From a virus (Duplodnaviria > Heunggongvirae > Uroviricota > Caudoviricetes): DNA of 64,000 bases. A program made the position numbers and the translations under genes. Below, piece by piece: positions 33,259-33,996 of this stretch. Numbering within the stretch: the first letter of the stretch is position 1; every line of letters begins with the position of its first letter. The stretch lies in the IMG/VR virus record IMGVR_UViG_3300036768_001066, one strand, 5' to 3'. The notes under the pieces were generated by a model. The model did not search any database. It had not been told where the DNA came from and was given only the letters and a program-made list of their open reading frames with translations.

Positions 33259-33996
33259 CTATCGCGGGGGCCTGGAGGATTTTTCCTTCGGGCCATATTT
33301 TTTTATCCTTCCTTTTATGAGCATGGCCGAATTTTCTGGATGTATTAAGTAATTATTTGTACCATCATTAAACCATCGTTTTCCGAGGTTAGCCATTTTT
33401 AATTTCAATTTTTGCTCGGTAGACATAGGTTTACCCTTATTATGTACCTTACGACCCTTTAGGGAATTGGACAATTTTAATTTGTGCTCATTAGACAACG
33501 GTTTATATTCGCCTTTTAATTTGCGAAGTTTGTTACAATTGGAAATATGTGTTTTAAATTCTTCGGAGTGTTTTTTACCTTTGTGCGCGATAGACATATT
33601 TAATCTCGCTGTATCCGTGGCTTGTTTGCCCGCCCTTGTTCTAATAGATGCTAATCCTATTTTGCGCTTAGTTTCTGCTGAATGTTTATATCCGAGCGGT
33701 AGTCCGTCTCCACCAGGCGTGCCATTCAATAGTTCTATACCCCAACTTCTAAATAATGAGATGTAATGTATTTCCCAAAAATTTACATCTTCATTTGGAA
33801 CTCTGTCCAGCTCAAATATAAAAGGTATTAAATTTTTAGACTTTAATGATTTTATCCAATTTACTTTCTTAGTATTATACTTGAGTTCGTATAGGTGATT
33901 TTCCAGCCTCTTAGCCAGTGTCCTCTTAGTTTTTCCAATATATTTGACTTCATCCGAAACAGGGTCTATCAGCATGTATATTATAGAGGTATTCAT
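33259..33996 (-). CDS. GIY-YIG homing endonuclease with NUMOD3-like repeats
   Basis: IYMLIDPVSDEVKYIGKT contains the GIY-x10-YIG signature. Repeated KxSxExKxKxS modules follow. It sits between the MVP-like gene and the dUTPase gene on the opposite strand. Confidence 0.8.
   Translation of the reverse strand: MNTSIIYMLIDPVSDEVKYIGKTKRTLAKRLENHLYELKYNTKKVNWIKSLKSKNLIPFIFELDRVPNEDVNFWEIHYISLFRSWGIELLNGTPGGDGLPLGYKHSAETKRKIGLASIRTRAGKQATDTARLNMSIAHKGKKHSEEFKTHISNCNKLRKLKGEYKPLSNEHKLKLSNSLKGRKVHNKGKPMSTEQKLKLKMANLGKRWFNDGTNNYLIHPENSAMLIKGRIKKYGPKEKSSRPPR

What the first reader, a model, noticed from the sequence alone, without database searches (positions are those of the whole stretch)
33259..33996. 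Several homing endonuclease genes and remnants across the window
An intact GIY-YIG/NUMOD3 endonuclease on the minus strand is wedged between the MVP-like gene and dUTPase. A GIY-YIG remnant (AWNKYGEDNFAFELI) lies at 13823-13924. A stand-alone double IENR1 DNA-binding ORF sits next to RuvC at 5198-5572. Two HNH endonucleases sit in tandem at 62545-63717. Freestanding endonucleases mark sites of genome mosaicism. They may explain the split polymerase and the disrupted genes nearby.
Basis: partly seen in the sequence, partly recalled or inferred. Interest (0 to 1): 0.5.

Follow-up and report, generated by a model that had tools for sequence, protein, structure and literature searches.

The report
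Homing endonuclease carrying a dUTPase gene
A selfish nuclease gene in a giant phage sits beside a foreign copy of a nucleotide-cleaning gene (dUTPase); the pair entered together as a 1.1-kb block that replaced the phage's own dUTPase, which is a clear but ordinary case of how such genes reshuffle phage genomes.

Summary
The window comes from a roughly 374-kb huge phage related to the Lak and LR7565xx megaphages. All four endonuclease loci exist.

- **Main locus, 33259-33996(-).** It is an intact free-standing GIY-YIG/NUMOD3 gene. Pfam's GIY-YIG model misses it, but the catalytic residues, the predicted fold and its homologues support the assignment.
- **Imported cassette.** The gene and the adjoining dUTPase form one imported block of about 1.1 kb (about 33296-34424).
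  - Four HEG-free relatives, including the two closest, have MVP directly followed by a different, 144-aa dUTPase (46-47% identical).
  - A more distant relative carries the same HEG plus dUTPase pair at the same site.
  - These two genes have the lowest GC3 in the window (0.35 and 0.34; median 0.70).
  - The HEG is under purifying selection (dN/dS about 0.1).
- **13776-13894.** A decayed GIY-YIG pseudogene.
- **5198-5614(-).** A conserved two-module NUMOD1 protein, translationally coupled to a RuvC-like gene. It is not shown to be a HEG.
- **62545-62847.** HlpB-like, a small HNH-like protein and not a typical HEG.
- **62995-63717.** A truncated HNH gene that lies at a synteny breakpoint next to two disrupted genes.
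- **Split polymerase.** The split is ancient and unrelated to these genes.

Verdict: a new member of a known kind, of moderate-to-low interest.

The parts
33259..33996 (-). Free-standing GIY-YIG/NUMOD3 endonuclease gene (245 aa). Catalytic domain: residues 1-97 (33706-33996). NUMOD3 modules: about residues 100-200 (33397-33699). Tail: residues 233-245 (33259-33297), which reads through the MVP terminator.
   Evidence: ORF. NUMOD3. Invariant Y7/Y19/R30/H34/E75/N91. AF2 fold with GIY-YIG PDB matches. PHROG 314. Orthologue 74% identical at the same site. dN/dS about 0.1. GC 0.359 and GC3 0.35.
34009..34449 (+). HEG-linked 'type B' dUTPase (146 aa). It starts 12 bp from the HEG start codon, in divergent orientation. 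Its last 22-25 nt are of the resident type.
   Evidence: Pfam dUTPase 8.7e-25. 86% identical to the L005 copy but 46-47% to the dUTPase of the closest relatives L171 and L172. GC3 0.34. Identity switches at about 34424. Shared A139.
33296..34424 (.). Approximate extent of the imported HEG plus dUTPase cassette, relative to HEG-free relatives.
   Evidence: W-L171 blastn homology ends at 33244 and resumes at 34405. W-L005 homology runs 33298-34449. Sliding windows. Junction sequences.
33269..33294 (+). Intrinsic-terminator hairpin of the MVP-like gene, followed by a T-run. It resembles the L171 terminator. It is overlapped by the 3' end of the HEG ORF and lies next to the left junction of the cassette.
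   Evidence: Terminator scan. Alignment with L171. The HEG tail matches the L171 terminator region, a weak HSP at E=1.7.
13776..13894 (+). Decayed GIY-YIG catalytic-domain pseudogene, with a frameshift, an in-frame stop and an internal deletion of about 55 nt. It lies in the 209-bp low-GC spacer 13766-13974. No DNA-binding part remains.
   Evidence: Three-frame reading. PHROG 7168 'homing endonuclease' 1.9e-4. The short peptide finds only annotated GIY-YIG or homing endonuclease genes among the listed phage hits. Collinear HSPs with the Bobb and phiP4-3 HEGs.
5198..5614 (-). Stand-alone protein made of two NUMOD1/I-HmuI-NUMOD-like (IENR1) DNA-binding modules (138 aa). The GTG start overlaps the RuvC-like stop (GTGA).
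   Evidence: Pfam. 4238 representative proteins match, mostly multi-repeat proteins with HNH or GIY-YIG domains or with NUMOD1 repeats only. 129-aa orthologue at 52% identity, after a RuvC-like gene in L198.
5611..6267 (-). RuvC-like resolvase gene directly upstream of the NUMOD1 ORF.
   Evidence: PHROG 159 at 2.4e-17. Homologues in jumbo phages. Only 38% identical to the L198 counterpart, while flanking genes are 74-85% identical.
62545..62847 (+). HlpB-like stand-alone HNH-like protein (100 aa).
   Evidence: NCBIfam NF058586 at 4e-14 over its full length, below the cut-off. HNH motif aligned to a group II intron En domain, E=0.009. An identical protein is present in relative L200.
62995..63717 (+). 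HNH endonuclease gene, 3'-truncated: 240 aa here against 343 aa in relative L200, through CAG->TAG at 63715. Homology to the relative ends at 63747.
   Evidence: Pfam HNH 1.2e-9. The N-terminal half matches phage HNH endonucleases, including Bacillus phage G gp157 and Skywalker. Comparison with L200.
61090..62537 (+). Disrupted genes next to the HNH pair. One 364-aa gene in L200 is split here into 61090-61407 and 61409-62107. A 539-aa gene is reduced to 61 aa (62313-62498) by a 1.3-kb deletion whose junction lies at 62525-62537.
   Evidence: PHROG 323 for the first fragment.
34901..36328 (+). N-terminal half of a family B DNA polymerase. It is not part of the element.
   Evidence: Pfam. Same 475-aa ORF in HEG-free relatives L171 and L172. 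PolB is split in phage PAU too. The C-terminal half is absent from the window.

Best explanation
The ORF at 33259-33996(-) is a free-standing GIY-YIG homing endonuclease gene of the I-TevI/Seg type. It has an N-terminal GIY-YIG nuclease domain and a C-terminal string of NUMOD3 DNA-binding modules.

**What is shown**
- The HEG and the neighbouring dUTPase gene form one foreign block of about 1.1 kb.
- In this phage lineage the block replaced the resident promoter region and resident dUTPase gene.
- The left junction lies in the T-run after the MVP terminator.
- The right junction lies in the conserved motif V coding sequence at the 3' end of the dUTPase.

**What is inferred**
- During co-infection the enzyme cuts HEG-free genomes in or near the resident dUTPase region.
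- Resection then proceeds until it reaches homology on both sides.
- Repair copies the HEG and its linked dUTPase allele from the HEG-bearing genome. This is intronless homing with co-conversion.
- The linked dUTPase allele is too different to be cut, and it supplies the function that is lost.

The other loci in the finding are a dead copy of another GIY-YIG HEG (13.8 kb), a conserved NUMOD1-only DNA-binding protein, an HlpB-like HNH-like protein, and a decaying HNH gene at a rearrangement boundary.
For: **Domain identity**
- NUMOD3 modules and the invariant GIY-YIG catalytic residues.
- High-confidence N-terminal fold whose top 11 PDB matches are all GIY-YIG domains.

**Presence/absence polymorphism at one site**
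- HEG present: the window (2 assemblies) and the L005 lineage (4 assemblies).
- HEG absent: L171 (MVP 95% identical), L172 (90%), L173 (68%) and L175 (65%). Their MVP-dUTPase spacers are 100-211 bp and clean.

**Linked dUTPase allele**
- Window-L005 dUTPase is 86% identical. Window-L171/L172 dUTPase is 46-47%, while other flanking genes are 88-99% (one fast-evolving ORF, o150, is 74%).
- The resident 144-aa allele tracks the genome phylogeny.

**Sharp junctions**
-.
- Motif V in both HEG-bearing lineages carries the resident-type Ala139.

**Composition**
- The HEG and dUTPase have GC3 of 0.35 and 0.34. These are the two lowest among real genes, of 87 ORFs (median 0.70). The only other ORF at 0.35 is a spurious intergenic one.
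- The same contrast is seen in L005.
- Type B dUTPases in HEG-free megaphages match their own genomes in composition.

**Function retained**
- pN 0.16 against pS 0.67 between the two HEG copies.

**Family behaviour**
- Relatives of this HEG sit at varied positions in other megaphage loci, some as fragments.
- 88 relatives were found in IMG/VR.

**Known mechanism**
- Intronless homing, co-conversion and marker exclusion (PMC2988022).
- HEGs at exchange boundaries (PMC10055350).
Against: - No cleavage activity or target site can be shown from sequence.
- Pfam's GIY-YIG model does not score this protein. Sequence-only PDB matches are weak, and Foldseek E-values are only about 0.02-0.04 despite a probability of 1.00.
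- The left junction looks like microhomology in a T-run, not a long homologous crossover. The HEG has lost its own stop codon there. At least that end may therefore have formed by illegitimate recombination.
- The HEG lies antisense to all neighbouring genes, only 12 bp from the dUTPase start, and no promoter was identified.
- No donor genome was found. No other HEG plus type B dUTPase pair appears among the 80 IMG/VR loci examined.
- All relatives are metagenome assemblies.
Confidence: 0.7

Rival explanations
1. The HEG plus dUTPase block was acquired by ordinary or illegitimate recombination between co-infecting phages, and the endonuclease played no part. The HEG is a passenger, or it now serves another role such as cutting competitor genomes without homing.
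For: - Left junction in a T-run with loss of the HEG stop codon.
- Antisense orientation with no detectable promoter.
- Neighbouring gene o150 also turns over rapidly without any nuclease gene.
- Type B dUTPase is unusually uniform across megaphages that lack the HEG, which suggests it spreads or is conserved independently.
Against: - The same two-gene block sits at the same site in two lineages that are separated by HEG-free lineages.
- The HEG ORF is kept intact under purifying selection across saturated synonymous divergence.
- The imported segment begins and ends exactly around the HEG and its neighbour.
Confidence: 0.2
2. The HEG plus type B dUTPase arrangement is ancestral in this clade, and the HEG-free relatives lost it. 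On this view the window shows retention, not gain.
For: - The divergence between the window and L005 cassettes (about 75% nt) is similar to that of their flanks (71-76%).
- Type B is the common dUTPase type in the wider megaphage group.
Against: - Four HEG-free lineages, including two outgroups, carry the 144-aa allele, and its identities track the genome tree: L171-L173 are 73% identical in the dUTPase against 68% in MVP. Retention would therefore need several independent, identical replacements.
- The empty sites show no HEG remnant.
- The cassette is a strong GC3 outlier in both host genomes.
- The dUTPase 3' end is chimeric with the resident type.
Confidence: 0.07
3. The protein is not a homing enzyme but a GIY-YIG nuclease of another kind, for example a modification-dependent restriction or defence enzyme such as PD-T4-3, or a repair nuclease.
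For: The best Foldseek match is PD-T4-3, a GIY-YIG 5hmC-specific restriction endonuclease.
Against: - No PADLOC defence family matches the protein, apart from a negligible Csm2 hit with no qualifying stretch (E=0.0027, 16 bits).
- The C-terminal half is NUMOD3 modules, as in I-TevI-type HEGs.
- Sources label four homologues (P0013, P0017, P0021, P0028) as group I intron endonucleases.
- Its distribution is sporadic and site-specific.
Confidence: 0.03

Closest known systems
Phage T4 Seg endonucleases (SegA-SegG): free-standing GIY-YIG homing endonucleases, 'intronless homing'
   Same: - A free-standing GIY-YIG gene inserted between conserved genes.
- Presence/absence polymorphism among related phages.
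- The neighbouring gene's allele travels with it, as in co-conversion and marker exclusion (PMC2988022).
   Different: - Only about 30% identical or less to any phage HEG in GenBank phage records.
- It lies antisense to its neighbours.
- The linked gene is not a polymorphic version of the same allele but a dUTPase only 46-47% identical to the one it replaced.
- Cleavage has not been tested.
I-TevI (td intron endonuclease of T4)
   Same: - The catalytic-domain fold matches: 1mk0 and 1ln0, TM 0.65-0.70 normalised to the target.
- It has the same set of catalytic residues.
- The NUMOD3-type minor-groove module aligns to the I-TevI DNA-binding domain 1i3j.
   Different: - It is not in an intron. 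No group I intron was found by Rfam.
- It has four NUMOD3 modules at the permissive threshold.
- No zinc finger or helix-turn-helix domain was detected.
- The Pfam GIY-YIG model is not matched.
HEG islands and nuclease genes at boundaries of genetic exchange (ICP1 and other phages; Barth, Dunham & Seed, PMC10055350)
   Same: - The nuclease gene lies next to a nucleotide-metabolism gene in the replication-gene region.
- It marks the edge of a segment exchanged between related phages.
   Different: The exchanged block here is small (1.1 kb, one passenger gene) and is bounded by a single HEG. The phages are uncultivated megaphages.
[quoted passage not shown]
   Same: The 100-aa ORF at 62545-62847 matches the HlpB family model end to end and is the same size. 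HlpB binds DNA and showed no detectable cleavage (PMC3765158).
   Different: The score (52.8 bits) is far below the family cut-off of 130. It is phage-encoded, and its function here is unknown.
Small free-standing HNH endonucleases of jumbo phages (e.g. Bacillus phage G gp157, phage Skywalker, pf16)
   Same: Residues 1-130 of the 62995-63717 product are 41-46% identical to them and carry the Pfam HNH motif.
   Different: The window copy carries an extra C-terminal region and is truncated relative to the 343-aa form in a close relative.

Membership tests
GIY-YIG homing endonucleases (I-TevI/Seg type) | GIY-YIG catalytic domain with the conserved Tyr (GIY), Tyr (YIG), Arg, His, Glu and Asn | tested here: met
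   Y7, Y19, G21, R30, H34, E75 and N91 are invariant in a 15-sequence alignment. The AF2 domain has pLDDT>90, and the top 11 PDB matches are all GIY-YIG domains.
GIY-YIG homing endonucleases (I-TevI/Seg type) | Match to the curated Pfam GIY-YIG model PF01541 | tested here: not met
   No hit even at E<=10. Homologues P0006, P0008, P0009, P0011, P0017 and others do carry PF01541. This looks like a sensitivity failure for a divergent subfamily and is not evidence of a different fold.
GIY-YIG homing endonucleases (I-TevI/Seg type) | Separate C-terminal DNA-binding region built from NUMOD-type modules | tested here: met
   NUMOD3 at E=2.7e-9, with 4 stretches at the E<=10 setting. The profile aligns to the I-TevI DNA-binding domain 1i3j at E=0.026.
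GIY-YIG homing endonucleases (I-TevI/Seg type) | Sporadic presence or absence at one genomic site among close relatives | tested here: met
   Present in the window and the L005 lineage. Absent in L171, L172, L173 and L175.
GIY-YIG homing endonucleases (I-TevI/Seg type) | Flanking sequence is co-inherited with the HEG (co-conversion) | tested here: met
   The dUTPase allele and the HEG share their distribution, their junctions and their GC3.
GIY-YIG homing endonucleases (I-TevI/Seg type) | Site-specific double-strand cleavage of the HEG-free allele, and biased inheritance | not testable with these tools
   This needs biochemistry or a homing assay.
Intron-encoded endonuclease | The ORF lies within a group I intron or an intein | tested here: not met
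   The only Rfam gathering-threshold hit in the window is the tmRNA. The ORF is intergenic and antisense, between complete genes.
HNH (His-Me finger) endonucleases: ORF 62995-63717 | Pfam HNH motif with a CxxC...CxxC zinc site | tested here: met
   PF01844 at 1.2e-9 and PF14279 at 1e-7. DH...N...CxxCN is visible in the sequence.
HNH homing endonucleases: ORF 62995-63717 | Intact gene with a sporadic distribution among relatives | tested here: inconclusive
   The gene is also present in the only close relative available (L200), where it is 343 aa. The window copy is truncated by a nonsense codon and a breakpoint.
HlpB family (NCBIfam NF058586): ORF 62545-62847 | Score above the curated equivalog cut-off (130 bits) | tested here: not met
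   52.8 bits, E=4e-14, full-length alignment. It is therefore HlpB-like but not a certified member. Pfam HNH scores only E=0.16.
NUMOD1/IENR1 DNA-binding modules: ORF 5198-5614 | Match to the NUMOD1 or I-HmuI NUMOD-like models | tested here: met
   PF22083 at 28.8 bits (cut-off 27) and PF07453 at 24.1 bits (cut-off 22.8), two stretches each. 4238 representative proteins match.
Homing endonuclease: ORF 5198-5614 | A nuclease domain in the same protein | tested here: not met
   The 138 aa consist of two NUMOD1 modules only. The 129-aa orthologue has the same architecture.

The most novel reading that the evidence does not exclude
The HEG and its dUTPase act together as a natural 'cleave-and-rescue' drive. 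The nuclease destroys the resident dUTPase gene of related phages. The tightly linked, highly divergent and therefore uncuttable dUTPase restores the function. The pair can then sweep through a phage population by replacing a housekeeping gene with a non-orthologous version.

A separate, weaker possibility concerns the RuvC-like gene and the translationally coupled two-module NUMOD1 protein (5198-6267). They could form a two-part site-specific nuclease, which would be a RuvC-fold homing system.
Probability: 0.3. Interest if true: 0.55.

Novelty: new member of a known kind. Interest (0 to 1): 0.35.

Why it matters
Homing endonuclease genes are thought to drive much of the gene exchange between related phages, but most direct evidence comes from T4 and a few cultivated phages. 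This case extends that to uncultivated megaphages. HEG-free and HEG-bearing relatives are both available, the junctions are defined to within a few bases, and the passenger is a complete housekeeping gene. The case shows that a HEG can carry a whole replacement gene and not just a few flanking polymorphisms. It also gives concrete substrates for testing the enzyme. It does not change how HEGs are understood. It corrects the suggestion that HEGs caused the split polymerase.

Tried and rejected
- **Megablast of 30-38 kb against GenBank phages.** No match.
- **Single-protein scan of IMG/VR with the MVP-like protein.** Nothing found.
- **Alignment-based scans of IMG/VR and JGI metagenomes.** They returned 160 loci, but none keeps MVP next to the dUTPase or PolB, so they were useless as empty-site controls.
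- **HMM of this HEG family against the six-frame window.** No further copies. It does not detect the 13.8-kb remnant, which belongs to another GIY-YIG subfamily.
- **Search for the PolB C-terminal half.** Motif patterns and PAU gp110 both found nothing in the window.
- **Rfam on the conserved 150-nt spacer element of L172/L005.** No family matched.
- **Promoter scan around the HEG.** Nothing convincing.
- **tblastn of the NUMOD1 ORF against phages.** No match.
- **PADLOC.** No defence-system assignment for any of the nucleases.
- **Amino-acid changes that might mark an immune target site in the HEG-linked dUTPase.** Only A139 was found, and it is better explained by the recombination junction.
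- **IMG/VR scan for HEG relatives next to a type B dUTPase (possible donors).** None found.
- **Low-GC3 ORF 12676-12927.** Inspected and dismissed as a spurious ORF.
- **RuvC homologues in three other megaphages.** None has a NUMOD1 partner.
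Full report
**Origin of the window**

The MVP-like protein (30830-33244) and the PolB fragment find their nearest GenBank relatives in the uncultured huge phages LR756500-LR756504 and LR745206. The PolB fragment also matches the Prevotella Lak megaphages, at 31-40% amino-acid identity; the MVP-like protein is 50-53% identical to its hits. The proteins of the window occur on a 373,759-bp JGI contig and on independent Logan assemblies of run SRR11727984. The window also carries a gp23-type capsid gene, a prohead protease, an NAD-dependent ligase, a UvsW-like helicase and a tmRNA gene. 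It is therefore part of a megaphage genome.

**The main locus: what the gene is**

- The ORF at 33259-33996 on the minus strand is real, 245 aa long, and lies between the MVP-like gene and a dUTPase gene that starts 12 bp from its own start codon, in divergent orientation.
- Its GC content is 0.359, against about 0.51 for the window.
- Pfam finds NUMOD3 (E=2.7e-9; four stretches at the permissive E<=10 setting) but no GIY-YIG domain, even at E<=10.
- The GIY-YIG assignment holds on other evidence:
  - PHROG 314 'homing endonuclease' scores 7.9e-15.
  - Forty homologues were found, several with a precomputed PF01541 hit, and four are named 'group I intron endonuclease' by their source.
  - In a 15-sequence alignment the invariant columns are Y7, Y19, G21, R30, H34, E75, N91, G95 and G96. 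These include the GIY-YIG catalytic set.
  - The AlphaFold model has pLDDT above 90 for residues 1-90, with beta-beta-alpha-alpha-beta-alpha topology.
  - The eleven best PDB matches are all GIY-YIG domains: PD-T4-3, the I-TevI catalytic domain (TM 0.65-0.70 on the target) and the UvrC N-terminal domain.
- No PADLOC defence family matches, apart from a negligible Csm2 hit with no qualifying stretch (E=0.0027).

**Comparison with relatives**

- A 74%-identical orthologue (P0002, 230 aa) lies at the same place, MVP | HEG(-) | dUTPase, in four assemblies from four other runs (L005-L008). That phage is about 80% identical to the window in its conserved proteins.
- Between the two HEG copies, synonymous sites are nearly saturated (pS 0.67) while pN is 0.16. 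This gives dN/dS of about 0.1, so the gene is kept functional.
- Four other relatives have no HEG. They are L171 (MVP 95% identical), L172 (90%), L173 (68%) and L175 (65%). Their MVP-like gene is followed after 100-211 bp by a dUTPase gene.
- These spacers show no significant trace of the HEG.

**The dUTPase allele travels with the HEG**

- In the window and L005 the dUTPase is a 146-aa 'type B' protein, and the two copies are 86% identical.
- In the four HEG-free relatives it is a 144-aa 'type A' protein, only 39-47% identical to type B.
- Every other gene around it is 88-99% identical between the window and L171, with one exception, the fast-evolving o150 at 74%.
- Type A identities follow the genome tree. 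L171 and L173 are 73% identical in the dUTPase, 68% in MVP and 65% in PolB-N. Type A is therefore the vertically inherited allele of this clade.
- At the DNA level, homology between the window and L171 stops at the MVP stop codon (33244) and resumes at 34405. Homology to L005 covers 33298-34449.
- In 45-nt windows the closer partner switches from L005 to L171 at about 34424.
- The last 22 nt of the dUTPase gene are identical to L171 and L172 but not to L005.
- Both HEG-linked dUTPases carry Ala139 in motif V (GAFGSTG), as type A does, whereas 86% of 108 other type B sequences have Gly. This points to a crossover in the only stretch where the two alleles are alike.

**Left junction**

- The MVP terminator hairpin (33269-33294) resembles that of L171.
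- The HEG reading frame has lost the stop codon seen in L005 and runs on through the T-run and the hairpin. This adds a 13-residue, low-confidence tail.
- The left junction therefore lies at about 33295-33305, in a T-run.

**Composition**

- GC3 is 0.35 for the HEG and 0.34 for the dUTPase. These are the lowest values among real genes, of 87 ORFs (median 0.70); the only other ORF at 0.35 is a spurious intergenic one.
- Neighbouring genes: MVP 0.70, PolB-N 0.71.
- In L005 the pair is also the outlier: 0.23 and 0.27, against 0.51 and 0.59 for its neighbours.
- Type B dUTPases in HEG-free megaphages (L191, L196, L197) have the composition of their own genomes.

**Interpretation of the main locus**

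A block of about 1.1 kb, consisting of the HEG and a dUTPase gene, was imported from a lower-GC relative and replaced the resident dUTPase. The same block occupies the same site in a second lineage that is separated from the window by HEG-free lineages.

This is the pattern expected from intronless homing with co-conversion, as described for the T4 Seg and Mob enzymes (PMC2988022), and for nuclease genes at the borders of exchanged segments (PMC10055350). The inferred steps are:
1. The enzyme cleaves the HEG-free genome.
2. The break is resected to the nearest homology on both sides.
3. Repair copies the HEG-bearing genome.

The evidence has limits:
- No target site can be derived from sequence.
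- The left junction looks like microhomology.
- The HEG is antisense, with no recognisable promoter.
- No donor or other HEG plus type B pair was found in IMG/VR.
- Type B dUTPase is oddly uniform across megaphages (75-90% identical) whose PolB-N is only about 52% identical. It occurs there without a HEG, directly upstream of PolB-N. Its spread or conservation is therefore not fully explained by this HEG.

**The split polymerase**

- The 475-aa ORF (34901-36328) holds the exonuclease domain and the start of the polymerase domain.
- An ORF of the same length is present in the HEG-free relatives L171 and L172, and a 470-aa version in L173.
- Sphingomonas phage PAU also has a two-part PolB, gp105 and gp110.
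- Neither motif searches nor PAU gp110 find the C-terminal half in the window, or within 6 kb of the homologue in LR756500.
- The split is old and is not linked to the HEGs.
- The short DUF4494-like ORF after it is likewise conserved in all relatives.

**The remnant at 13.8 kb**

- The 209-bp spacer 13766-13974 has GC 0.354.
- Read in three frames, it shows GIYRIVNKK, then ...FLIG (or NTGDF*LG), then IQRAWNKYGEDNFAFELI.
- PHROG 7168 'homing endonuclease' matches at 1.9e-4.
- The 27-aa peptide finds only annotated GIY-YIG or homing endonuclease genes among the 15 listed phage hits.
- Two intact td-intron HEGs (phages Bobb and phiP4-3) give their best hit in the whole window at 13841-13894 (E=2e-5 and 5e-4). 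A collinear second hit for residues 6-20 lies at 13776-13820, in another frame and with a stop codon. About 55 nt are missing between the two hits.
- It is a dead GIY-YIG gene of the I-TevI-like subfamily, different from the intact one. No DNA-binding part remains.

**The NUMOD1 ORF**

- The ORF at 5198-5614(-) consists of two NUMOD1/I-HmuI-NUMOD-like modules.
- The likely start is the GTG that overlaps the stop of the RuvC-like gene (GTGA), which suggests translational coupling.
- 4238 cluster representatives match it. Most are long multi-repeat proteins. Of those checked, some carry HNH_3/NUMOD4 or GIY-YIG domains and several carry NUMOD1 repeats only.
- One representative, P0313 (129 aa, 52% identical), has the same two-module architecture. 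It sits after a RuvC-like gene in contigs from the same sequencing runs as the L005-lineage contigs L006/L007, so it is inferred to belong to that phage.
- That gene pair is far more diverged (38% and 52%) than its flanks (74-85%).
- RuvC homologues in three more distant megaphages have no such partner.
- GC3 is native (0.70-0.79).
- It is a conserved stand-alone DNA-binding protein. Calling it a HEG remnant is not justified. A functional link with the RuvC-like nuclease is possible but untested.

**The HNH pair**

- The 100-aa product of 62545-62847 matches NCBIfam HlpB over its full length (E=4e-14, 52.8 bits, cut-off 130).
- It shows the CxxC...HH...CHxxxH motif, aligned to a group II intron En domain.
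- HlpB is a B. subtilis stand-alone HNH-like DNA-binding protein for which no cleavage was detected (PMC3765158).
- The 240-aa product of 62995-63717 has a clear Pfam HNH motif. Its first 130 residues resemble small HNH endonucleases of jumbo phages.
- A relative that is 95-97% identical at the DNA level (L200) carries the identical HlpB-like gene and a 343-aa form of the HNH gene.

Differences between the window and L200:
- CAG has become TAG at 63715.
- Homology ends at 63747, and nothing downstream is related.
- A 1.3-kb deletion (junction at 62525-62537) has removed most of a 539-aa gene.
- A 364-aa gene is split into 105-aa and 232-aa ORFs.

The HNH gene is therefore decaying and lies at a rearrangement boundary. 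Both HNH genes have native composition.

**Verdict**

The locus is a new member of a known kind: a free-standing GIY-YIG HEG with a co-transferred neighbour. A specialist would find the completeness of the natural experiment useful but not surprising.

Noticed in passing
window 22402-22836 (+): A phage-encoded tmRNA gene: Rfam RF00023, 86.7 bits, full-length model. ARAGORN did not call it.
   Followed up: no
L172:7305-7455 and the corresponding stretch of L005 (reverse strand, just after the MVP stop): A conserved non-coding element of about 150 nt downstream of the MVP-like gene. It is shared by one HEG-free and one HEG-bearing relative but is absent from the window and L171. No Rfam family matches it.
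   Followed up: partly
window 34452-34904 (+): The 150-aa ORF between the dUTPase and PolB-N evolves very fast. It is 74% identical to L171, while its neighbours are 95-97% identical. L171 and L172 are 44% identical in this ORF, and the L005 counterpart is not detectably similar. No family hit.
   Followed up: partly
window 5198-6267 (-); L198:4322-5390: The RuvC-like gene and the two-module NUMOD1 gene overlap by GTGA and stay together in a relative. The pair is 38% and 52% identical to its counterpart, while flanking genes are 74-85% identical. The adjoining minus-strand ORFs (4262-5231) have no counterpart in the relative. This looks like a variable island.
   Followed up: partly
window 34009-34449; loci L191, L196, L197, L176, L177: Type B dUTPase is 75-90% identical across megaphage lineages whose PolB-N is only about 52% identical. 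Two copies sit in contigs binned as Lachnospiraceae and Treponema MAGs. This means either unusual conservation or frequent horizontal spread.
   Followed up: partly
window 61090-62537: Relative to L200, a 364-aa gene (its N-terminal part matches PHROG 323, 'transcriptional regulator, D5-like') is split into two ORFs. A 539-aa gene of unknown function is reduced to 61 aa by a 1.3-kb deletion with a short repeat (GAAGCTGAA) at the junction.
   Followed up: yes
window 34901-36328; L010 (phage PAU gp105/gp110): Family B DNA polymerase is encoded as two separate genes across this whole group of large phages. The C-terminal half lies outside the window.
   Followed up: partly
window 26848-27684 (+): A 278-aa protein with a strong match to PHROG 5931 (unknown function, 3e-70) and a faint GmrSD_N/DUF262-like signal. 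It has lower GC3 (0.48) than the window median.
   Followed up: no
loci L016, L109, L112, L124, L125, L127, L132, L149, L160 and others: Relatives of the intact HEG, some of them short fragments, lie at many different positions near the MVP-like gene in other megaphages. This HEG family is widespread and mobile in the group.
   Followed up: partly
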